The notes: generated by a model not told the origin, from the letters alone. Counted from the first letter of the stretch, positions 40,153 through 59,407 are shown. The stretch: 64,000 bases of DNA from an uncultured Candidatus Actinomarina sp. (GCA_902521955.1 CABYTP010000003.1:5910-69909); one strand, 5' to 3'. Program-made: numbers and translations.

Positions 40153-41280
40153 TTAGCTATTAGGAAGGATTGACATAAGCTCTTCTTCAGAGCTGTTAGT
40201 AATAAAATTTCTAAATTCTTCTTCGTATGTAATGTAATTTTTTCCAAATGTATTTTGAAAATTTTCAGGAAATAAAATACCTGTCTGTGCATTTATCCAA
40301 AAGTCATACATTGTCTGTTCTCCGTGAATGTTGGTTAAGTAGGCTATAAACCATGCACCTACTTGATAACCTACAGCCCAATCACTTTCCCAAGTGACGT
40401 TATAGAGTTCAGGCCCATTCAAATATCGTTCTTTTATGGTTGGTTGATTGTCTCCACAGTAACAACTAAATAATCCTCTATTCATTTCGTTTTGCAAATG
40501 AGAAAAATCATTTACGTCACGTGAATAGTAAAGGTGAGAAAAATATGTTGCATATCCCTCCATCCAGAAAGGTTTGTCTCTTTCATCCTTTTCTATTCTC
40601 TTGCCAGTAATTTTTTGTTCTAAGTCGTAGTCAAAACCTACAACATTGGAAAGTTGAAAAATGTGATACATTTCATGAATAGTTACATAAGCTTGTGATC
40701 TACTATCCCAAGATAAATCAAATGATCCACTAATGAAAAGATAACAACATTCTCTATCACTTGGTATTCCGCTTATAGAAGATCCTGTAACTCTTCCACT
40801 ATCTGTAAAAAGACCAATACTTCCGTCAGCTTTCTTATCATGATTCTTTGGATTGCAGCGGGAATTCCTGAATGTTTTTGGATACACTTCATCTAAATAC
40901 TGGCAATATTCTTCCTCTAGAGCTATTGCAGATTCATAATTTTCAGAGTCAAGCTGAACAACAAGTATTGGATATAAATTTTCTCTTTTTATGCGTTCAT
41001 CTACAAACAAAAGCTGTTCCGTATATTGAATGTACTTTGTAAGAATATCCACATGCTGATCAGAAATAGTTGAGGCTCTAAAGATTTTTACATCTCTGTA
41101 GTCAAGATAGTTATCTGATTGGGGAATATTTTTCTCTGGAGTAGTCGTTGCTATGTCTTCAACTGTAATGGTCGTTGTTATATCTTGAGTAGTGTCTGTT
41201 GTAATAATTAAAGATCCCTCAGTTAATTCACTTCCACCACACACGATGAAGATCGATAAAAATAGTATGTATTTTTTCAT
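40153..41280 (-). CDS. putative secreted lipoprotein with HExxH (zinc-metalloprotease-like) motif
   Basis: Signal plus lipobox-like FIVCGG, a Thr-rich linker, and VTIHEMYHIF containing HEMYH. No family assigned. Confidence 0.4.
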   Translation of the reverse strand: MKKYILFLSIFIVCGGSELTEGSLIITTDTTQDITTTITVEDIATTTPEKNIPQSDNYLDYRDVKIFRASTISDQHVDILTKYIQYTEQLLFVDERIKRENLYPILVVQLDSENYESAIALEEEYCQYLDEVYPKTFRNSRCNPKNHDKKADGSIGLFTDSGRVTGSSISGIPSDRECCYLFISGSFDLSWDSRSQAYVTIHEMYHIFQLSNVVGFDYDLEQKITGKRIEKDERDKPFWMEGYATYFSHLYYSRDVNDFSHLQNEMNRGLFSCYCGDNQPTIKERYLNGPELYNVTWESDWAVGYQVGAWFIAYLTNIHGEQTMYDFWINAQTGILFPENFQNTFGKNYITYEEEFRNFITNSSEEELMSILPNS

Positions 41281-41415: not shown

Positions 41416-42081
41416 CTATTTTTCTCCCGGTTTGTAGAAGATTTTATTTCTTCCCTGAACCAAATGATATCTATCCATTAACGCATTTTTATCTACATCA
41501 ACAGAATCTGTTAAAACAAGTTCATCCATTAGTTCAAATCTACGATTTTTATAGTCTATTTTAGTTGGGACAACTGTAGCGTCGAGTGCTCGACCAATAT
41601 AATGAAACCCAGTTTTTATAGTTTCGTTAGATTTCATCTCGCCTTCAACTGTTAAATAGAGAATAAATTTATCTTTTGATTGAAGCTGATCAATAACTTG
41701 CTGCGTAACTCCAGTTGATTTAGCTCTCCAAACAGGAATTCCACCAAATTCAAGGAGTAGCTTATTTTGCATCTTCCCAAAAGGGTGCGGTATGCCCAGT
41801 TTGTCTGGATTTTTTTTAAAAGGAAGTGGTATAACTATTCGAGTAAACATTGAAACTGAACCCAAAAAGTAAAACTTCAAATCGGTGGCTAAGCATACTA
41901 TATATGCATAAATTGCATCAAAAGTAGATGAGTGAGGTGCTGAGGCAATAATTATTCTCTTTTTATCAGGTAGGTTGCCAACTATATCCCAGTTAACAAC
42001 TTTTAAAACAAACCGTCCAATTGGTCCAAGTATTTTTCTTTTCTTATTTGGATGATTTTCTGTTTTAACAACCTCTTCCAT
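41416..42081 (-). CDS. PlsC-like acyltransferase
   Basis: 221 aa. SAPHSSTFD is an HxxxxD acyltransferase motif. Paralogous to the ORF at 51076-51741. Confidence 0.55.
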   Translation of the reverse strand: MEEVVKTENHPNKKRKILGPIGRFVLKVVNWDIVGNLPDKKRIIIASAPHSSTFDAIYAYIVCLATDLKFYFLGSVSMFTRIVIPLPFKKNPDKLGIPHPFGKMQNKLLLEFGGIPVWRAKSTGVTQQVIDQLQSKDKFILYLTVEGEMKSNETIKTGFHYIGRALDATVVPTKIDYKNRRFELMDELVLTDSVDVDKNALMDRYHLVQGRNKIFYKPGEK

Positions 42082-47310: not shown

Positions 47311-48579
47311 TTATAAGTCGTTTATAAATGTATCTTGAAAACTCTGTCTATTTACTAACTCAACCACACCGCTATCAGTTACAGCAACTACTCCAGATTT
47401 GGGTACTCGGTTATAGTTACTTGCCATAGCAAAGGTATATGCTCCAGTAGATGTAGACATTAAAATATCACCAGATACAGTATCTCTTGGCAACATTGCA
47501 TCTTTGACTAATAGATCTCCACTTTCACAGTGCCTACCAGAGACAGCATGCACTACATCGTCTCCAGCTTTTCCACCTGAGATATTAAATAGTTTATGCT
47601 CACTTCCATACAGAGCTGGCCTTGGATTATCAGACATACCACCATCTACCAAAATATATGGCTTCTCTCCTCTATCATCTTTAATGGCTCCAGCAGTATA
47701 TAAAATGACTCCTGGATTATTCACTAATGCTCTACCTGGTTCAATCATGACCTTATATGATCCACTCCAGTGTTCTTTGATTCCTTCATGAATGGCATCT
47801 GCATAGACTTTTAGTTCGTGGTCTACTTCATCACCTGCATAGGGAGAGAAAAATCCACCACCGGCATCAAAGACTATTTCTCTTTCCACACTTGCTGGGT
47901 GAGCATTAAGAAAATCTGCACACTCGCTCATTGCTTTTTTATAACGATCTGGGTCTTTAATCTGGCTACCAATATGGACATGTACTCCAGAAAATAATAA
48001 ATGAGGGGAGTTGTAGATTTGTTGCAGAGCCTCTTCTGCAAAACCAATAGAGATACCAAATTGTTGGTCGTATCCAGAAGTTAATACCATCGGATGTGTC
48101 TCAGCTCCAACATCTAAATTAATTCTCATTATGACCGGTTGTTTTCTACCTAACTTGTTAGCAACCTCTTCTAACATTGGAATCTCAAAACGATTATCTA
48201 CTGAGATATGTCCTCCATTATGTTGCATGAAAAACTCAATTTCATCTTTATTCTTAAAGGTTCCGTTAAATAAAGAATTTTCTAACGTTCCAGTAACAGC
48301 TTGGACTGTTGCCATTTCTCCACCAGAGACAACATCTACTCCCCATCCTTTATTATCTAACTCTTTAACTAGGGCTTTACATATAAATGCTTTTGCTGCA
48401 TATCTAAAATAAGTATCTTCTCCAAATGCATTTGTAAAATGATCAATATTATCTTTTAAATGTTCCCAGTCATACACATATAGGGGAGTTCCATATTCTT
48501 TTGCAACGTCAAGTAATGAAGTCTCTCCGATAAAAGCGACCCCATCCTTAAATTCAAGGTTGGATGGTAAGTAATTCAT
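47311..48579 (-). CDS. lysA: diaminopimelate decarboxylase
   Basis: 422 aa. YAAKAF (PLP Lys), HVHIGSQ, DAGGGF, EPGRALV and CESGD motifs. Confidence 0.9.
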   Translation of the reverse strand: MNYLPSNLEFKDGVAFIGETSLLDVAKEYGTPLYVYDWEHLKDNIDHFTNAFGEDTYFRYAAKAFICKALVKELDNKGWGVDVVSGGEMATVQAVTGTLENSLFNGTFKNKDEIEFFMQHNGGHISVDNRFEIPMLEEVANKLGRKQPVIMRINLDVGAETHPMVLTSGYDQQFGISIGFAEEALQQIYNSPHLLFSGVHVHIGSQIKDPDRYKKAMSECADFLNAHPASVEREIVFDAGGGFFSPYAGDEVDHELKVYADAIHEGIKEHWSGSYKVMIEPGRALVNNPGVILYTAGAIKDDRGEKPYILVDGGMSDNPRPALYGSEHKLFNISGGKAGDDVVHAVSGRHCESGDLLVKDAMLPRDTVSGDILMSTSTGAYTFAMASNYNRVPKSGVVAVTDSGVVELVNRQSFQDTFINDL

Positions 48580-52552: not shown

Positions 52553-53557
52553 CTAGTTTACTACTTCACCAGAAGTTGGACTTACTCCTAGATTTCCTAA
52601 CATATAACCAAATAATAATGGTGTGGTAACTAAGCCCCCAAGGCCATAGAAACGCCATGTTAGATCTATTTCGTTTATTGATGAAAAAACTAATAAATGC
52701 AGGACAAAAACAAATCCATAAGAGCCGGCAACTAACGCTGCACTTATCTGAATTTTTCTATCGTGGTTAGTTGTTTGGTACCAATTAGTAATTTGATAAA
52801 TGAGTACCGCCATGATTAATCCAGAAATACAAATCAAAATAGTACGATCAAACTCACCAAGGCTTGGGTTTATAGAGATATATAAAAAAGAAACCAGATA
52901 AATAGTAGACATTTGTTTTGCTGTAACTTTGAATCGAATTATATAGACAAAGATAAAACTAGCTAACATTGCTTGCAAAATAACACTTCCCGCAGCAAGT
53001 TCATCCTCTCTATCAATAAAAGACCATATATCTAAAAATGGATTTATAAAAAGTGTGATAAACATGACCAATCCATAACTTGTTGCTGCTGAAAAAATTG
53101 CTGCATTGTCTAATTTCTCTTTTGATGGTCTTGCTGTGAAAACATAGTCCAACATTAAAAATGAACCTAGGAATAACATGAGATGTGATGGTGTGATTAA
53201 AGGTTCAACCCCTGTTTCGATTCCAAAAAGAGTATGCCAAATTGCGTCTGAAGCTCCTCCGATGCCAAAAACTACAGCACCTAAAACACCGACATCAACT
53301 TTATAATCTTTCATATTATTTTTTATGTACATGGCTACTAAAACTGAAAAAGCATAGCCTGAGTACAGTAGAGCATGCCAGGGAGTGAAAAAAGTTTCTA
53401 TATCGTCGATAAGGTAAGTGTGGGCACTTGAATCAATCCAGGCGCCTGAAAAAAACCAAATCATTGAAAAAATTAATAATCTTCTATGATTTTTATCAGT
53501 GATTGGCGTTGGTGATAATTTATTAAACATGTTGTATCTTTTCTTTATTGTAAACAA
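52553..53557 (-). CDS. hypothetical polytopic membrane protein
   Basis: 334 aa, about 9 TM helices with several conserved-looking His (AHTYL, WHALL, WHTLFG). No family assigned. Confidence 0.4.
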   Translation of the reverse strand: MFTIKKRYNMFNKLSPTPITDKNHRRLLIFSMIWFFSGAWIDSSAHTYLIDDIETFFTPWHALLYSGYAFSVLVAMYIKNNMKDYKVDVGVLGAVVFGIGGASDAIWHTLFGIETGVEPLITPSHLMLFLGSFLMLDYVFTARPSKEKLDNAAIFSAATSYGLVMFITLFINPFLDIWSFIDREDELAAGSVILQAMLASFIFVYIIRFKVTAKQMSTIYLVSFLYISINPSLGEFDRTILICISGLIMAVLIYQITNWYQTTNHDRKIQISAALVAGSYGFVFVLHLLVFSSINEIDLTWRFYGLGGLVTTPLLFGYMLGNLGVSPTSGEVVN

Positions 53558-55036: not shown

Positions 55037-55528
55037 ATGAATACTTTTAGTTCACAACATAGCCAAGTTTTTTCACAAAACGTTTCTGAATTATGGAGTG
55101 CAATATCAATAGAAAATAATTTGAACGATACTCATCCTTTTTGTAAAGAAAATAGATCTATTGAGTGGTCAGGTGATGTACATAAAGATATTCTGGTCTA
55201 TCTAAATGGAACGACTTATGTAAGAGATTTTTCAGAGTGGTTTGAAGGTAAGGGGTATAATTTATGGATTGGTGAAGATGGCGGACCAAAGTCATATGTA
55301 GAGTGGCGAATAAAAGAGCATGCTAATGGTTCTGAGTTATCAATAACGGTGTATCCACATTTATTAAGTAAATGGCCAAAAACACTAGCTTTTATACCTT
55401 TTTGGGTATATATCAATCCAAAACTAAGGTCGTATTTAAAATCTGTTCTTAAAGGGTTCAAATGGAATCTTGATAAAAATACTACTGTACCAAGAAACCA
55501 GTTTGGAGAACACTCCTGGTTTTCATAA
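55037..55528 (+). CDS. SRPBCC-superfamily (polyketide cyclase/START-like) protein
   Basis: 163 aa. The length and alternating beta pattern with a long C-terminal helix fit SRPBCC. No catalytic motif recognised. Confidence 0.4.
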   Translation: MNTFSSQHSQVFSQNVSELWSAISIENNLNDTHPFCKENRSIEWSGDVHKDILVYLNGTTYVRDFSEWFEGKGYNLWIGEDGGPKSYVEWRIKEHANGSELSITVYPHLLSKWPKTLAFIPFWVYINPKLRSYLKSVLKGFKWNLDKNTTVPRNQFGEHSWFS

Positions 55529-55567
55529 ATTATTTTTCATCTTCACAGCCACATTCTGGACAAAACA

Positions 55568-55942
55568 TTACTCACCTCCTACTTCATCAAGCTTAATAAT
55601 TGCGCGATGTTCATCAGGTCCCCTAAGAAACATTTGTGAAATCACGCCATATTTGTTTTTAATGACGCCTACTGCTTCAGCTTTTGCTACAGGTTCAGTA
55701 ACTAGTGACCCTATAACATCTAAGCTCTCTGAAAGTCTTTTAGTTCCACTTTGGTTTGTTATATAAATTGTTGCTTTACCGTTATTTCTAACTCTTTTAA
55801 CTTTTCCAGCATTCAGACTTGTAGTTACAACTAGTGAATTATCATGTGGAGCAACCCAAACTGGCGTTGTTACTGGTGAGCCATCTTTTTTATAAGTAAT
55901 TAGATTTATGTATTCGACATCTTTGAAATCGTTAAAGTCCAT
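55568..55942 (-). CDS. PPOX-class (pyridoxamine 5'-phosphate oxidase-like, probably F420-dependent) protein
   Basis: 124 aa. LITYKKDGSPVTTPVWVAPHDNSLVVTT is the typical split-barrel PPOX N-terminus found in actinobacterial F420 enzymes. Confidence 0.65.
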   Translation of the reverse strand: MDFNDFKDVEYINLITYKKDGSPVTTPVWVAPHDNSLVVTTSLNAGKVKRVRNNGKATIYITNQSGTKRLSESLDVIGSLVTEPVAKAEAVGVIKNKYGVISQMFLRGPDEHRAIIKLDEVGGE

Positions 55943-56133
55943 ATAGAAATAATACGTTAAAAATAATTTAATAAAAGCTCTGGAAGCTGTCTCAGCCTGC
56001 GTGCAACATAATCGTTAGAAATTAATAAATAAATCAAAGTTAGAATGAACAAGAATTTAAATAGATTTTTTCTGATGTACATAAAGTTATAGTAAATATT
56101 TTTTTGTGTACATGTTTACCATTAAACAGAAGG

Positions 56134-56772
56134 TTATGTTGGGGTATCTCCTTCATTAAAATCTATGTTCAACATACCTGCATAAACAGGTCCCATATAT
56201 GCTACAGTGCTTCCGTCAAACAAGTCAGTTTCTGATTCGCTATCAAGAACTGCTTGTAGTTTTGTGACTGCGGCATCCATGTCTTCTTTGGAATCCCAAA
56301 AGTTCCAACTAATTGCGCTATTTCCATCGAAAATTGCACCTGTAACTTGGAGTCCTTCTGACTCTTCGTAAATTGGCTCTACTTTTTCTTTTAGAAAATT
56401 TAACACTGCGTCTGTTTCTTTTGCTACACCAACTACCAATCTCAAGTAGCTTGGTCTCTGACTGTCTTTGGCCATGGTTTGGTATATCTTTCCGTAGACA
56501 GCATCTCCTTCATAAACAACCGGAGGTGCAGACATTAAACTTCCTGCACCTGATAAAACTCCTTCAATTTGCTCTTGTGCTGCATCTAAATGCTCTTTAC
56601 TTTCATAGCATGACAAGTTTATACCTGAATTTTCTCCAGTTATTGCTGCCATCATTGTTAAAAGACCCGGTGTTCCTGCAAACTCAGGTATAACCTTTTC
56701 TTTAACATAAGAAACTGCCTCATCTCTTTTCCCATCCTGCAGAGCAGGGATAGTTATTCTAAAGTACATCAT
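56134..56772 (-). CDS. tandem ABM/dimeric alpha-beta-barrel-like protein, paralog 1
   Basis: 212 aa with an internal duplication (YFRITIP ... SCYESKEHLDAAQE and YLRLVVG ... WNFWDSKEDMDAAVT). Each half has the ABM-like pattern. Alignable to the ORF at 57429-58070. Confidence 0.45.
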   Translation of the reverse strand: MMYFRITIPALQDGKRDEAVSYVKEKVIPEFAGTPGLLTMMAAITGENSGINLSCYESKEHLDAAQEQIEGVLSGAGSLMSAPPVVYEGDAVYGKIYQTMAKDSQRPSYLRLVVGVAKETDAVLNFLKEKVEPIYEESEGLQVTGAIFDGNSAISWNFWDSKEDMDAAVTKLQAVLDSESETDLFDGSTVAYMGPVYAGMLNIDFNEGDTPT

Positions 56773-56786
56773 TTCCTTTCTATTAA

Positions 56787-57416
56787 TTAAACCTCATGTT
56801 TTCCGATAGCATCACCAACTCCAATTATGAAAAGTGGATATAAGATAACTCCACCAAGAACAAATAGCCCCGCAAAAGCTGCGGCTGGTATGATTCCAAA
56901 AAGAGTTAGTGCTTGAGCAGGAATTATTATTGCAGCAAAGATGGTTCCAACAGTTTGGGTCCTCTTACTCAATAAATTTCCTCTTCGCTTGTCAGTCCTG
57001 ACTAGCAAATACGCATACATTCCATATAAGAAAAATATTGTATTTGTAAATGAGCCTGATATTGCACCAACAGTATCAGTATCTAAGACTGTATCAAAAA
57101 CGCTGTAGTAATTAAATACTGCTCCTAGAGAAAACAACATCTGAACAGTTACACTAACGAACAAGATGTTATGCATATGTGACAAATCAAAAGTTTGTTT
57201 TACATCAAAAACTACATAAATACCCAAAAGTACTCCTGTAGTTAAGAATGCAATTACAAAGTTTAATATCGACGTAATTGGTCCGTAAGTTGGGTCAAAG
57301 CCAACAGAATCTGGTCCTAATAAAAGTGCCAAGATCACAAAATTTGCTAAAACACAAACAGCAATGACTCTTGTTATTGCTTTTAAGTTTTTAATTTCAT
57401 CTTTAAATGTTTCCAT
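56787..57416 (-). CDS. hypothetical 6-TM membrane protein, paralog A
   Basis: 209 aa. Shares GP..S.LNF and LGG..LYPLFI.G.G motifs with the ORF at 58099-58722. Confidence 0.5.
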   Translation of the reverse strand: METFKDEIKNLKAITRVIAVCVLANFVILALLLGPDSVGFDPTYGPITSILNFVIAFLTTGVLLGIYVVFDVKQTFDLSHMHNILFVSVTVQMLFSLGAVFNYYSVFDTVLDTDTVGAISGSFTNTIFFLYGMYAYLLVRTDKRRGNLLSKRTQTVGTIFAAIIIPAQALTLFGIIPAAAFAGLFVLGGVILYPLFIIGVGDAIGKHEV

Positions 57417-57428
57417 TGATAATCCTTT

Positions 57429-58070
57429 CTACAATTTTCCTACAGGAAAATCGACATAATTTTTCCATATATCACATTGACCAGTTATTTCTTGTGGTGC
57501 TTCTGAAATAAGATTTGCAACCGCATCTGAAACAACTGATGAAATAACATCTGATGCAGCATGTGCGGCGTCGTGATTAGTCCAAAAGTTAAAACTAAAT
57601 CCTTTATCTTCAGCTACTTTACAAGCTCCGGTTCCATAAATTCCTTCAACATTTTCGTAAGCTGGATAAACAGTGTTCGTCATAAAATCTGCAACATCAT
57701 CATAGGTTTTACCCTCTTGGGTTCCTCCACCTAAAACAAATCTTGCAAAAAATCCATCTTCACCGTCTTTGGACACTGCAACGTATTGCTGTCCAGCAAC
57801 CATGGTTCCTTCCGTAACTACTGGCTGTCCTGCTAGCATTTCACCAGCTCCTGCTAATGCTTGGTTGAACTTTTCAATAGAAGCATCTTTAGCCTCTTCA
57901 TTAGCCCATGTAGACCATGCCATAAATCTTCCATCGTTAGTGGCACATGCAGCTATTCCTAATAGCCCTGAGATTCCCTCATAAGATGGTATTACTGTAT
58001 TCTTGACGTATTCAAGGGCGTTATTCATTTCACCCTCTTTTACATCTGCAAGAGTTAGTCTTACAAACAT
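57429..58070 (-). CDS. tandem ABM/dimeric alpha-beta-barrel-like protein, paralog 2
   Basis: 213 aa with the same two-half layout (FVRLTLA ... WSTWANEEAKDAS and FARFVLG ... FNFWTNHDAAHAAS). Confidence 0.45.
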   Translation of the reverse strand: MFVRLTLADVKEGEMNNALEYVKNTVIPSYEGISGLLGIAACATNDGRFMAWSTWANEEAKDASIEKFNQALAGAGEMLAGQPVVTEGTMVAGQQYVAVSKDGEDGFFARFVLGGGTQEGKTYDDVADFMTNTVYPAYENVEGIYGTGACKVAEDKGFSFNFWTNHDAAHAASDVISSVVSDAVANLISEAPQEITGQCDIWKNYVDFPVGKL

Positions 58071-58098
58071 AAAACTCCTTCCTTAAAGTTTTAAGCCC

Positions 58099-58722
58099 CT
58101 ATTTTTTCGGAGCTGTTTCCATTGCTTTTCCTAAACCAAAAATAAATAATGGATAAAGTACTAATCCTCCTAAGACAAGTGTGATGAAGCCCACAACTTC
58201 TGGAAGCACTCCATACGCAAAACCAAGTGTACTTACCATAACTAGAGTAGCTCCTCCCCACCCTGCATAATTTGCATAGGTTGGAATTAGGTTAGCTTTT
58301 GTACTTCGTAGAACAGCTATCCCAAATATTCCTATAAAGACTCCCCATGCAGATGTTGCTGCACTAGTTGCATCAATTACCTGGTTAGTTGTTAAGAATG
58401 TTTCACCTATTGAATTCTCTTGTCCAACAGCACCGAATGCTGGCATAGTGTTAACAACGTGTGCGACAAAAGCCATTGTGCCCGTTACGTTAACATATGG
58501 GTTATCATCTCCACCAAATAATTTTGTTCCAATGTAGAGAACAAATAAAAATGCGAAGCTTAAACCAAAGTTTAAAACTGACAAGGCTGGTCCCCATGTT
58601 TCACTATATCCAACTTGGTCTGTAGGAATTAAAAATGCCTGTATGCCGAACGATAATATTATCGTTACAACAAAGACTTTTGACATTGTTGAGCCAAGTC
58701 TTGATTCACTTTCTGTAATCAT
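58099..58722 (-). CDS. hypothetical 6-TM membrane protein, paralog B
   Basis: 207 aa. GPALSVLNF and LGGLVLYPLFIFGLG motifs shared with paralog A. Confidence 0.5.
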   Translation of the reverse strand: MITESESRLGSTMSKVFVVTIILSFGIQAFLIPTDQVGYSETWGPALSVLNFGLSFAFLFVLYIGTKLFGGDDNPYVNVTGTMAFVAHVVNTMPAFGAVGQENSIGETFLTTNQVIDATSAATSAWGVFIGIFGIAVLRSTKANLIPTYANYAGWGGATLVMVSTLGFAYGVLPEVVGFITLVLGGLVLYPLFIFGLGKAMETAPKK

Positions 58723-58733
58723 ATTTTTCCTTT

Positions 58734-59300
58734 CTACTCTGTGCCTGAAGTTGCTTTATCTCCCCAAGCAAAATAATTTCCTAAACTTGTTCCAACTACC
58801 AAAAACAACCATCCAACAAGTCCAATTATTTGGAAATCTTCTGGTAATTCATAACCAAAAAATATATCTGCTGAACTACCAATAGTTATGATAAAAGCAC
58901 CTAAGACAGTTATGTTTTCATATAGTGGACGAAAAATGCCAGTTCCTCTTAAAGTTAAAGTATAAATTAATGAGTTAAAAGCCCAAAAAAAGTACATTGG
59001 GAAAAAACCATCTTCTTCAAGGAGAGTAATTTCAAGAAACGTACCCAAAATAATAACTGAAGCTAATACTGTTGTAGCTGCTTTCCAATATTCTGGAACA
59101 TGCCCCTCTGCAAGATAATAGCCTGCAATAATAATAGAAACTAATGTGAACCCCCAGAAAAAGTTCAACAAATCATCAACTGCGTCTAAAGCTGTTGATC
59201 CTGAGAACTCTACTCCTATAAATACCACATTAATGACTAGAAAAGTCAGTGCATTTTGTCTTGCTAAATCACCGATTGGCTGGGTGAAAAATTTTTTCAT
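58734..59300 (-). CDS. hypothetical membrane protein, distant paralog C
   Basis: 188 aa. Similar TM layout and an LLNFFWGF motif at the position equivalent to LNF in paralogs A and B. Confidence 0.45.
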   Translation of the reverse strand: MKKFFTQPIGDLARQNALTFLVINVVFIGVEFSGSTALDAVDDLLNFFWGFTLVSIIIAGYYLAEGHVPEYWKAATTVLASVIILGTFLEITLLEEDGFFPMYFFWAFNSLIYTLTLRGTGIFRPLYENITVLGAFIITIGSSADIFFGYELPEDFQIIGLVGWLFLVVGTSLGNYFAWGDKATSGTE

Positions 59301-59339
59301 TAGTTAACCTACCTTCCATAAGTTCCCTCTTATTAAATT

Positions 59340-59374
59340 AATGATGTAATTTAACTTCCATAAATTACATCATT
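59340..59374 (-). terminator. 14 bp perfect hairpin between the LLM gene and the membrane/ABM array
   Basis: AATGATGTAATTTA (59340-59353) and TAAATTACATCATT (59361-59374) with a 7 nt loop. AU-rich, followed on the minus strand by AAUUUAAU. Confidence 0.4.
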
Positions 59375-59407
59375 ATTTTACAAAATTTATTTAAGGAATG
59401 GGGTCTT

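What the first reader, a model, noticed from the sequence alone, without database searches (positions are those of the whole stretch)
56134..59300. Array of three paralogous membrane proteins interleaved with two paralogous tandem-ABM-like proteins
Five consecutive minus-strand genes with 10-30 nt spacers form the pattern membrane C, membrane B, soluble S2, membrane A, soluble S1. A and B clearly share motifs (GP..S.LNF, LGG..LYPLFI.G.G), and C shares the LNF helix. S1 and S2 align end to end. Each is itself an internal duplication of an approximately 100 aa alpha+beta-barrel (ABM/Dabb-like) unit with the W/Y-x-S/T-x-E/D ... DAA pattern. So a membrane-plus-soluble cassette has been duplicated in tandem in a genome that otherwise carries very little redundancy. 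The array lies directly downstream of LLM oxidoreductase, M20 peptidase and FtsX-type ABC permease genes. I cannot assign the membrane family. Cofactor-independent oxygenase or isomerase chemistry, or ligand binding at the membrane, is a possibility.
Basis: partly seen in the sequence, partly recalled or inferred. Interest (0 to 1): 0.65.

Follow-up and report, generated by a model that had tools for sequence, protein, structure and literature searches.

The report
Actinomarina membrane-plus-barrel protein operon
Five adjacent genes in the tiny ocean bacterium Candidatus Actinomarina form a separately and strongly transcribed operon that mixes an uncharacterised family of six-helix membrane proteins with oxygenase-like barrel proteins; every related genome has a version of it in a different arrangement, and its function is unknown.

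Summary
Five minus-strand genes (56134-59300) with 11-28 nt spacers encode two tandem alpha+beta-barrel (ABM-like) proteins and three 6-TM proteins. S1 and S2 are paralogs, and so are A and B. C is a distant relative that only profile comparison detects.

The window comes from Ca. Actinomarina SAG AG-333-E10. The "duplicated membrane+soluble cassette" reading does not hold. In 34 Actinomarina arrays the locus sits at the same site but shows 30 different gene orders (2-9 genes), drawn from old subfamilies (about 9 AB, 10 C, 5 S, plus single-unit barrels). All subfamilies are under purifying selection.

S2's subfamily (S.1) is near-universal. It has been exchanged between clades. In all 33 genome copies it carries His-x3-His-x23-Glu and three Cys.

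The A/B family has no Pfam, PDB or BFVD relative. It also occurs without any barrel partner, as tandem arrays in marine Chloroflexota.

The array has its own conserved -10 box, 5' hairpin and Shine-Dalgarno sequence. In four marine metatranscriptomes it yields contigs while the upstream LLM, M20 and ABC genes do not.

Function is unknown. My working model is a membrane-associated small-molecule handling module with S2 as the candidate catalytic core.

The parts
56134..56772 (-). S1: cytoplasmic tandem alpha+beta-barrel (ABM-like) protein, 212 aa, subfamily S.2. It lacks the His-His-Glu constellation.
   Evidence: ORF. 33% identity to S2, E 5e-31. Subfamily clustering puts it in S.2, present in 18 of 34 arrays. 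Positions 166, 170 and 194 are E/D, D and A in S.2. dN/dS 0.09.
56787..57416 (-). A: 6-TM membrane protein, 209 aa, subfamily AB.1 of the orphan A/B family.
   Evidence: ORF. 28% identity to B, E 4e-18. No Pfam or NCBIfam family. AB.1 occurs in 9 arrays, dN/dS 0.06.
57429..58070 (-). S2: tandem alpha+beta-barrel protein, 213 aa, subfamily S.1, the near-universal core of the array. It carries H166-x3-H170-x23-E194 plus C42, C150 and C199.
   Evidence: AF2 pLDDT 92, pTM 0.85. Foldseek against PDB: 3mcs and 3f44 at TM 0.74, E 1e-11; SOR 2cb2 at E 1.5e-8. S.1 is in 33 of 34 arrays. The six residues are invariant in the 33 genome copies plus the window. 30 of 39 full-length metagenome representatives keep the two His.
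58099..58722 (-). B: 6-TM membrane protein, 207 aa, subfamily AB.7 (rare, 3 arrays).
   Evidence: AF2 pLDDT 90: six long helices plus one short helix. No PDB match (best E 0.09) and no BFVD match. Only 75 clusters at 50% identity in 1.84 billion proteins.
58734..59300 (-). C: 6-TM membrane protein, 188 aa, subfamily C.1. It is the usual first gene of the array and a distant homolog of A and B.
   Evidence: ORF. 145 homologs, none named. C.1 is in 29 of 34 arrays. hhalign of C profile against AB profile: 87-90%, E about 1e-6, reversed controls <1%.
59301..59380 (-). Conserved leader of the array. It has a -10-like box TAAAAT (59375-59380), a 14-bp hairpin (arms 59361-59374 and 59340-59353, loop TGGAAGT) and a Shine-Dalgarno GGAAGG (59312-59317).
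   Evidence: Sequence. Inverted repeat I1. The same architecture lies upstream of the first array gene in other genomes, whatever gene precedes it. RNAalifold on 27 leaders finds 10 pairs, 5 with compensatory changes between clades. Transcript contigs reach 59349. No Rfam family matches.
56077..56133 (-). 3' untranslated end of the array transcript (minimum extent).
   Evidence: A metatranscriptome contig at >=98% identity spans 56077-56255. No contigs lie over 55209-56009.

Best explanation
Shown. The five genes are one autonomous, strongly transcribed operon, and a version of it was found in each of the 34 Ca. Actinomarina arrays compared. It is assembled from two old gene families. One is an orphan family of about 200-aa, 6-TM membrane proteins (A, B and, distantly, C). 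The other is a family of cytoplasmic dimeric alpha/beta-barrel (ABM-like) proteins (S1, S2; elsewhere also single-unit relatives). The window's order is one of at least 30 arrangements. These arose by gain, loss, reshuffling at gene boundaries and exchange between clades of whole genes from long-diverged subfamilies, not by a recent cassette duplication. All subfamilies are under purifying selection.

Inferred working model. The membrane paralogs form substrate-specific conduits or docking platforms, possibly as hetero-oligomers. This function is self-sufficient, because the family exists alone in marine Chloroflexota. In Actinomarina the barrel proteins have been recruited to act on the cytoplasmic side on the same small, probably hydrophobic or aromatic, molecule(s). 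S2 (subfamily S.1) would be the conserved core and candidate metal-dependent catalytic subunit, using His166, His170 and Glu194 with nearby Cys. S1 and the other S paralogs lack that site and would be accessory binding or partner subunits.
For: Organism and distribution. The window is 100% identical to SAG AG-333-E10. All 34 genome hits for S are Actinomarina/OCS155-type records.

Array comparison. Same site in every genome, 30 distinct orders, 2-9 genes, S.1 in 33 of 34 and a C-type gene in 34 of 34.

Selection. dN/dS is 0.05-0.28 for every subfamily, like the flanking genes.

Exchange between clades. S.1 identity is discordant with the flanks. For example, L012-L017 have M20 at 67% but S.1 at 90-91%, while L001 and L022-L032 have M20 at 89-93% but S.1 at 66-69%. 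Synonymous differences in the S.1 C half are 0.26-0.44 across clades, against 0.65-0.77 in the flanks and 0.53-0.63 for same-clade genomes carrying the other allele. Transcript contigs break at gene junctions.

Own transcription unit. The -10 box, hairpin and SD are conserved and the hairpin shows compensatory changes. Contigs span the S1-A, S2-B and B-C junctions. At >=98% identity, four metatranscriptomes give depths up to 60 across 56.08-59.35 kb and essentially nothing on 52-56 kb or 59.6-64 kb.

Folds. S is a tandem ferredoxin-like barrel. Small soluble array members weakly hit NIPSNAP and DUF1428, and S.4 reaches 22.8 bits against ABM.

Candidate site. H-x3-H-x23-E/D is invariant in S.1 (33 genome copies plus the window) and in S.3 (16 of 16), and absent from S.2, S.4 and S.5. 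The spacing equals the iron ligands His86, His90 and Glu114 of sulfur oxygenase reductase (PMC7398979).

Membrane family. It stands alone as 2-4-gene arrays in marine Chloroflexota and other marine contigs.
Against: No experiment or complex prediction links the S proteins physically or functionally to the membrane proteins. Co-transcription is the only link. It is confined to Actinomarina, the gene ratio is not fixed, and no specific S-membrane pair is conserved.

The membrane proteins have no invariant polar or charged residue inside the helices. The conserved positions are Gly, Pro and loop or tail motifs. They also match no solved transporter fold.

The His pair of S.1 is replaced (Q/N, Q/D, T/E, H/N) in 9 of 39 full-length metagenomic cluster representatives. 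In SOR the motif lies in the N-terminal part of the protein, here it lies in the C-terminal unit. There is no sequence similarity to SOR. I could not inspect model coordinates, so the three residues are not shown to be close in space.

The RNA evidence comes from assembled contigs of runs that were selected because they contain array words. It shows strong relative representation, not quantitative expression.
Confidence: 0.35

Rival explanations
1. Co-located but functionally independent. The 6-TM family does its own job, as in Chloroflexota where it has no barrel partner. The S proteins are ordinary cytosolic ABM-type enzymes or stress proteins that share a strong promoter in a genome with almost no intergenic space.
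For: The A/B family occurs alone or in pure A/B arrays in other lineages. There is no fixed stoichiometry and no conserved S-membrane pair. Operons are long and spacers about 2 bp in these genomes (PMC7771536).
Against: Every one of 34 Actinomarina arrays combines at least one 6-TM gene with at least one barrel gene at the same site. The S family was found nowhere else in those genomes. The genes are interleaved rather than placed as two blocks. The minimal arrays are still one C plus one S (L028, L042).
Confidence: 0.3
2. Non-enzymatic barrel proteins. The S proteins are ligand-binding, chaperone or regulatory subunits (NIPSNAP- or Dabb-like) that dock on the conserved cytoplasmic N- and C-terminal tails of the membrane proteins. 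No oxygenase chemistry is involved.
For: S1 and three of the five S subfamilies lack the His-His-Glu set. Some S.1 variants have lost the His pair. Single-unit members resemble NIPSNAP and DUF1428. The membrane proteins have strongly conserved cytoplasmic termini: MKKFFTQPIG..RQN and AWGDK in C, MIT..E..LG in A/B.
Against: Invariance of His, His, Glu and three Cys in all 33 genome copies of S.1 plus the window, together with retention of H-x3-H and an acidic residue in the very divergent S.3, is hard to explain without a chemical role.
Confidence: 0.17
3. Surface-variation or conflict locus. The membrane paralogs are exposed targets or immunity-type proteins, for example against phage or membrane-active toxins. 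Their turnover would be driven by antagonists.
For: There are 30 arrangements in 34 genomes, mosaic junctions within natural populations and exchange between clades. The conserved motifs of A/B lie in predicted outward-facing loops (topology is my inference from the positive-inside rule).
Against: There are no PADLOC hits, no copies on viral contigs and no BFVD fold match. dN/dS within subfamilies is low, with no sign of diversifying selection. The locus has genome-typical GC and the window has no tRNA, unlike the known Actinomarina flexible island or HVR. The S proteins lack signal peptides.
Confidence: 0.08
4. One reading: a recent in-situ tandem duplication of one membrane+soluble cassette (B-S2 giving A-S1).
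For: The alternating order in the window, and the similar divergence of A/B (28%) and S1/S2 (33%).
Against: A, B, S1 and S2 each belong to subfamilies shared by many species and older than the clades. The alternating order occurs in only 2 of 34 arrays. B's ortholog follows S2's ortholog in L001. DNA repeats between the copies are negligible.
Confidence: 0.05

Closest known systems
Tandem (fused) ABM-like 'putative monooxygenases' of unknown function, PDB 3MCS (Fusobacterium FN1347) and 3F44 (Lactobacillus acidophilus). More distant: anthrone-oxidase-like 5F9P and PenE 9KDP.
   Same: One chain of about 210 aa forming a pseudo-dimeric alpha+beta barrel from two ferredoxin-like units. Foldseek E 1e-11, TM 0.74.
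   Different: Only 10-14% sequence identity. No HMM-level similarity to any PDB chain. Pfam ABM matches only below the curated cut-off. Those proteins are not known to be encoded with membrane partners (my knowledge, not tested here). Their functions are mostly unknown too.
Sulfur oxygenase reductase (SOR; PDB 2CB2, 6M35)
   Same: The same barrel superfamily (Foldseek E 1.5e-8, TMq 0.69). The identical spacing His-x3-His-x23-Glu that ligates the mononuclear iron in SOR, and three conserved cysteines (PMC7398979).
   Different: SOR is about 308 aa with chimney and C-terminal helices and forms 24-mers. Its motif is at residues 86-114, whereas here it is at 166-194 in the second unit. There is no sequence similarity and no Pfam SOR hit. 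The organism is a mesophilic oxic-ocean heterotroph. The His pair is lost in some environmental variants.
NIPSNAP and DUF1428 single-domain barrel proteins
   Same: The small soluble members found in some arrays (about 106 aa and about 117 aa) give weak hits to these families, E 1e-3 and 1e-2. They belong to the same clan as ABM (my knowledge of the Pfam clan).
   Different: All hits are below the curated thresholds. These members are not present in the window itself.
Small-membrane-protein uptake systems with a cytosolic trapping partner, or paralogous specificity subunits (PnuC-NadR, ECF S-components). Functional analogy only.
   Same: Small (about 200 aa, 6-TM) membrane proteins present as several divergent paralogs. 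Strong transcript representation in a nutrient-poor-ocean, multiply auxotrophic organism. A cytoplasmic partner is encoded alongside.
   Different: No fold match to any solved transporter, including these. No conserved polar residues within the helices. No ATPase or T-component is adjacent. This is an analogy recalled from knowledge, not a tested relationship.
Flexible genomic island fGI1 / tRNA-bounded hypervariable region of Actinomarina (PMC7771536; bioRxiv 10.64898/2026.04.03.716425)
   Same: Fixed position with variable gene content between species.
   Different: This window has no tRNA. GC is 0.37, which is not lower than the surroundings, whereas the island is at about 28-29%. The content here is a reshuffled set of the same few families under purifying selection, not singletons. 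Neither paper mentions the array.

Membership tests
Dimeric alpha/beta-barrel superfamily (ABM-like) | Two beta-alpha-beta-beta-alpha-beta ferredoxin-like units packing into a barrel | tested here: met
   AF2 model of S2, pLDDT 92, with secondary structure E-H-E-E-H-E twice. Foldseek against PDB gives 174 hits at E<=1e-3, all barrel-superfamily proteins among the top 50. N half against C half by hhalign: 99.5%.
Pfam ABM (PF03992) | Score at or above the curated gathering threshold (23.1 bits) | tested here: not met
   S2 17.6 bits (E 0.0045). S1 has no ABM hit. The best relative, S.4, reaches 22.8 bits.
Cofactor-independent ABM monooxygenases | O2-dependent turnover of an aromatic or polyketide substrate without metal or cofactor | not testable with these tools
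   Requires biochemistry.
Sulfur oxygenase reductase | Iron ligands His-x3-His-x23-Glu | tested here: inconclusive
   The spacing is identical in S2/S.1 (H166, H170, E194) and similar in S.3. However, the motif lies in the other barrel unit, spatial proximity was not checked, it is absent in S1, and the His pair is lost in 9 of 39 metagenomic variants.
Sulfur oxygenase reductase | Sequence family membership (about 308 aa, SOR Pfam model, chimney insertion) | tested here: not met
   S2 is 213 aa. No SOR family appears in the Pfam scan at E<=1. Profile searches of the PDB do not retrieve SOR.
Any curated membrane-protein family (Pfam-A, NCBIfam) | Significant HMM match for A, B or C | tested here: not met
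   There are no hits at or above threshold. Scattered hits at E>0.005 go to unrelated DUFs, each in 1-2 of 21 or 23 members.
Solved membrane folds (ECF S-components, PnuC, SWEET, rhodopsins and others) | Structural match of the AF2 model | tested here: not met
   Best PDB hit E 0.09, TM <=0.41. Best BFVD hit E 0.55. Profile-versus-PDB sequence searches give nothing meaningful. AlphaFold DB was not available.
One superfamily joining A/B with C | Profile-profile similarity beyond composition | tested here: met
   hhalign 87-90%, E 1.5-4e-6, about 180 colinear columns, against <1% for reversed controls. The AB HMM ranks C third among all window ORFs, E 0.003.
Known anti-phage defence systems (PADLOC) | HMM match | tested here: not met
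   The only hit is ZorA at E 0.012 over 42 residues of C. There is nothing for the other proteins.
tRNA-bounded flexible island / HVR of Actinomarina | tRNA boundaries, lower GC, singleton content | tested here: not met
   No tRNA or other Rfam hit in 64 kb. GC is 0.37 at the array against 0.32-0.37 around it. The same families recur in all genomes.

The most novel reading that the evidence does not exclude
The array is a previously unrecognised small-molecule acquisition or processing system of nutrient-poor-ocean bacteria. A new class of 6-TM conduits, shared with marine Chloroflexota, would be coupled in Actinomarina to cytoplasmic barrel proteins, including a SOR-like non-haem-metal enzyme (S2). 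One concrete version follows from the report that Actinomarinales encode two rhodopsins but no known retinal-synthesis genes (PMC7771536). The operon could supply or salvage the chromophore, or another membrane-soluble cofactor. Nothing here links it to retinal specifically.
Probability: 0.1. Interest if true: 0.85.

Novelty: new variant of a known kind. Interest (0 to 1): 0.55.

Why it matters
Ca. Actinomarina is among the smallest and most abundant photoheterotrophs of the surface ocean. It is uncultured, extremely streamlined, and has only 29-44 paralogs per genome. A locus that spends 2-9 genes on paralogs of two uncharacterised families, is kept in every genome examined, has its own conserved expression signals and dominates local transcript assemblies is likely to encode something central to this lifestyle.

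The work also defines three things. First, an orphan 6-TM family shared by marine Actinomarinales and Chloroflexota. Second, a new branch of the alpha/beta-barrel superfamily with a candidate 2-His-1-carboxylate site. Third, a compact example of gene-by-gene reshuffling and exchange between clades that lies outside the known hypervariable island. Each of these gives a concrete, testable target in an organism where most leads come from annotation alone.

Tried and rejected
1. Assigning the membrane proteins to a known family. I tried Pfam, NCBIfam, PADLOC, PDB sequence profiles, and Foldseek against PDB and BFVD. All were negative.

2. Sequence-level links of S to solved structures, including SOR. 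Only spurious TPR and Vps4 hits appeared.

3. A riboswitch or known RNA in the leader. Rfam gave no hit in the whole window.

4. The simple promoter and terminator scan. It found fewer promoter-like sites than in shuffled sequence and nothing at the leader. The conserved -10 box only became visible by comparing genomes.

5. Phage carriage of S. None was found in IMG/VR.

6. DNA repeats that could drive cassette shuffling. Only short, weak matches near ribosome-binding sites and gene starts were found.

7. A metagenome scan with the broad A/B alignment.

8. Literature. Two Actinomarinales genome papers and a search for expression studies contain no mention of this locus.

9. Recent cassette duplication. 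Rejected on comparative grounds.

10. Membership of the known flexible island. Rejected.


Full report
WHAT IS THERE. They are S1 56134-56772, A 56787-57416, S2 57429-58070, B 58099-58722 and C 58734-59300, with spacers of 14, 12, 28 and 11 nt. Upstream are a luciferase-like monooxygenase of the Atu2307/SP_0267 family, an M20 peptidase and a duplicated FtsX-type permease. Downstream, after 191 nt, is a PPOX/F420-type protein. S1 and S2 are paralogs (33% identity, E 5e-31), and a cross-repeat alignment (E 3e-6) points to an internal duplication. Comparing profiles of the N and C halves confirms the duplication (99.5%, E 3e-23; reversed control 3%). A and B are paralogs (28%, E 4e-18). C is not detectably similar to A or B by BLASTP or thin profiles. 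With profiles built from 62 A/B-type and 79 C-type sequences, hhalign gives 87-90% probability, E 1.5-4e-6, over about 180 colinear columns, against <1% for reversed controls. I therefore treat C as a distant member of one 6-TM superfamily.

ORGANISM AND DISTRIBUTION. A scan of one genome per GTDB species found S2 relatives in 34 loci, all labelled Ca. Actinomarina, OCS155 or unclassified actinobacterial MAGs. One of them (SAG AG-333-E10) is 100% identical to the window. Homolog searches returned only unnamed marine metagenome, SAG and Tara proteins. An exhaustive profile search with the A/B family found only 75 clusters at 50% identity among 1.84 billion proteins.

FOLDS. The AlphaFold2 model of S2 (pLDDT 92) has two ferredoxin-like units. 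Its best PDB matches are fused ABM-like 'putative monooxygenases' of unknown function (3MCS, 3F44; TM 0.74). These are followed by an anthrone-oxidase-like protein, PenE, sulfur oxygenase reductase, and chlorite-dismutase or coproheme-decarboxylase proteins. Pfam ABM matches only below its threshold. The model of B (pLDDT 90) has six long helices plus one short helix. It has no significant match in the PDB (best E 0.09) or in BFVD. Pfam, NCBIfam, PADLOC and PDB-sequence profile searches are also empty.

COMPARATIVE ANATOMY. I called ORFs in all fetched loci, classified them with HMMs of the three families and clustered them at 50% identity. The array always sits at the same chromosomal site. 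It follows M20, LLM or a PutA-like gene. It precedes the PPOX gene, with a cupin and/or an acyltransferase-3 gene in between in some genomes.

Its content differs nearly everywhere. Thirty-four arrays show 30 subfamily orders and 26 family-level orders, with 2-9 genes (median 7). The general grammar is:
- 1-4 C-type genes;
- optionally an A/B-type gene;
- S.1 (the subfamily of S2);
- optionally S.4 and a single-unit barrel protein of about 117 aa;
- 0-2 A/B-type genes;
- optionally S.3;
- optionally S.2 (the subfamily of S1) or S.5.

S.1 is in 33 of 34 arrays, and a C-type gene is in all of them. The window's C-AB-S-AB-S order occurs twice. The gene before S.1 is C-type in 24 arrays and A/B-type in 8. 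The ortholog of B (75% identity) follows S.1 in L001. Extra small soluble members weakly resemble NIPSNAP and DUF1428. Two further 175-180-aa multi-TM proteins are even more divergent relatives. All subfamilies have dN/dS of 0.05-0.28, the same range as the flanking genes, so these are maintained genes. This pattern is not that of a recently duplicated membrane+soluble cassette.

EXCHANGE BETWEEN CLADES. Identity of S.1 to the window copy is discordant with the flanks. Genomes whose M20, permease and other flanking proteins are only 58-67% identical carry S.1 at 90-91%. Genomes with flanks at 86-93% carry S.1 at 66-69%. The difference is concentrated in the N-terminal unit (45-54% against 84-89%), while the C-terminal unit stays at 73-96%. 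Synonymous differences in the S.1 C half are 0.26-0.44 in the cross-clade pairs. That compares with 0.65-0.77 (saturated) in the flanks and 0.53-0.63 in same-clade genomes carrying the other allele. Codon constraint alone would not produce this, so it indicates transfer of the gene between clades. In metatranscriptome contigs, sequences diverge from the window exactly at gene junctions (57417-57429, 58727-58755, 59281-59287). One contig joins S2 to the start of the B region and skips B. This fits whole-gene mosaicism in natural populations.

EXPRESSION SIGNALS AND TRANSCRIPTS. The 107-nt spacer before C holds a 14-20 bp inverted repeat. Aligning the region upstream of the first array gene from 27 genomes shows a conserved architecture, whatever gene lies upstream. 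It consists of a -10-like box (TAGAAT, TATAAT or TAAAAT), 4-5 nt, a 10-bp hairpin with a GGGAAG-type loop, and about 25 nt leading to a GGAAGG Shine-Dalgarno sequence. Five of the ten hairpin pairs carry compensatory changes between the two main clades. A third leader type (L005, L011, L042) has a different hairpin after TATAAT.

A 5'-terminal stem-loop commonly stabilises mRNA. That is my interpretation and was not tested.

Four marine metatranscriptomes contain contigs covering 56.08-59.35 kb. These span the S1-A, S2-B and B-C junctions, with depths up to 60. At >=98% identity, almost nothing maps to the 4 kb downstream or the 4.6 kb upstream that contains the LLM, M20 and FtsX genes. There are caveats. 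The runs were chosen because they contain array words. Contigs are not reads. In one run (X10) other genes at 44-52 kb reach similar depth. The conclusion I draw is limited: the array is its own transcription unit and is much better represented than its neighbours.

A CANDIDATE ACTIVE SITE. Across the 33 genome copies plus the window, S.1 has invariant His166, His170, Glu194, Cys42, Cys150 and Cys199. The very divergent S.3 keeps His-x3-His and an Asp at the third position. S.2 (S1 of the window), S.4 and S.5 do not. By the model's secondary structure, the His pair lies at the start of helix 2 and the Glu at the start of strand 4 of the second unit. The spacing His-x3-His-x23-Glu is that of the iron ligands of sulfur oxygenase reductase, which also has three functionally important cysteines (PMC7398979).

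This is a lead, not a membership. There is no sequence similarity. The SOR motif sits in the N-terminal part of a 308-aa protein. I could not check 3-D proximity. Nine of 39 full-length metagenomic representatives have replaced the His pair while keeping Glu194, Cys150 and Cys199.

THE MEMBRANE FAMILY OUTSIDE ACTINOMARINA. Divergent A/B members lie on contigs of 34-55% GC. Some are annotated by NCBI as Chloroflexi or Chloroflexota MAGs. There the family is solitary or forms tandem arrays of 2-4 paralogs, with a conserved paralog order in L051, L055 and L061. No S or C gene lies within 7 kb. One subfamily (AB.2-like) clusters with these non-Actinomarina sequences. Tandem multiplicity is therefore a property of the membrane family itself, which suggests hetero-oligomers or a set of specificities. 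The association with barrel proteins is specific to Actinomarina.

INTERPRETATION. Shown:
- an autonomous, conserved, strongly represented operon built from two old families;
- gene-level reshuffling and exchange between clades;
- purifying selection on all subfamilies;
- an orphan 6-TM family, and a new barrel-protein branch with a conserved His, His, Glu and Cys constellation in its core member.

Inferred with low confidence (about 0.35): the membrane proteins are conduits or docking platforms for small, probably hydrophobic molecules, and the barrel proteins act on those molecules in the cytoplasm, with S2 as the catalytic core.

The main rival (0.3) is simple co-transcription of functionally independent genes. 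A non-enzymatic binding or partner role for the S proteins (0.17) and a conflict or surface-variation role (0.08) remain open. The recent-cassette-duplication model is rejected (0.05).

The report that Actinomarinales lack known retinal-synthesis genes despite having two rhodopsins makes a chromophore or cofactor salvage role an attractive speculation, but no data here support it specifically.

NOVELTY. Neither the 2020 order-level genome paper nor the 2026 complete-genome preprint mentions the locus. The soluble part is a new branch of a known superfamily. The membrane part has no known relative. The combination is undescribed. Because the function is unknown, I rate it a new variant of a known kind rather than categorically new.

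Noticed in passing
L051 7001-9838, L055 4378-7417, L061 5344-7618, L060 597-2878: Marine Chloroflexota-type and other unclassified contigs carry tandem arrays of 3-4 A/B-family paralogs in the same paralog order. In L051 and L055 they sit next to an aquaporin-like and a ketopantoate-reductase-like ORF. In L061 they sit next to DinB_2 and arylsulfotransferase genes. A conserved 272-288-aa ORF lies on the opposite strand just downstream.
   Followed up: partly
window 52553-53557 (-): A 334-aa multi-TM protein with no Pfam family. It is syntenic next to the amino-acid permease in most Actinomarina loci, at 56-88% identity and dN/dS 0.12.
   Followed up: partly
window 40153-41280 (-) and 41416-42081 (-): Two further ORFs (375 aa and 221 aa) next to an MFS transporter have no Pfam match at E<=0.001.
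   Followed up: no
L028 (BOWN01000001.1, 617-kb contig): The record is titled 'Cryomorphaceae bacterium'. It nevertheless carries the Actinomarina FtsX-M20-LLM synteny at 89-90% protein identity and a minimal array (C.2 + S.1). It is probably a mislabelled Actinomarina genome, in line with the preprint's remark that many NCBI records in this group are misclassified.
   Followed up: partly
L010 (C.7, 132 aa), L012 (C.8, 117 aa), L025 (AB.5, 147 aa), L027 (C.9, 123 aa), L035 (C.3, 149 aa): Some arrays contain truncated copies of membrane genes. These could be decaying paralogs, SAG assembly errors or my simple start-codon calls.
   Followed up: no
window 58084-58697 (run X4): One metatranscriptome contig (depth 22) joins position 58084 to 58697 and so skips almost the whole B gene. 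This suggests a co-occurring strain whose array lacks B at this position.
   Followed up: no
window 1-64000: No tRNA, rRNA or any other Rfam family reaches its gathering score anywhere in the 64-kb window.
   Followed up: yes
window 47311-48579 (-): The ornithine/DAP/arginine decarboxylase gene is the only other place in the last 20 kb with clearly raised transcript-contig depth in run X2 (about 24).
   Followed up: no
L069 3081-3446: A 121-aa NIPSNAP-like ORF (judged by eye) lies about 3.5 kb from a split A/B-family gene on a 54% GC contig. This may be coincidence.
   Followed up: no
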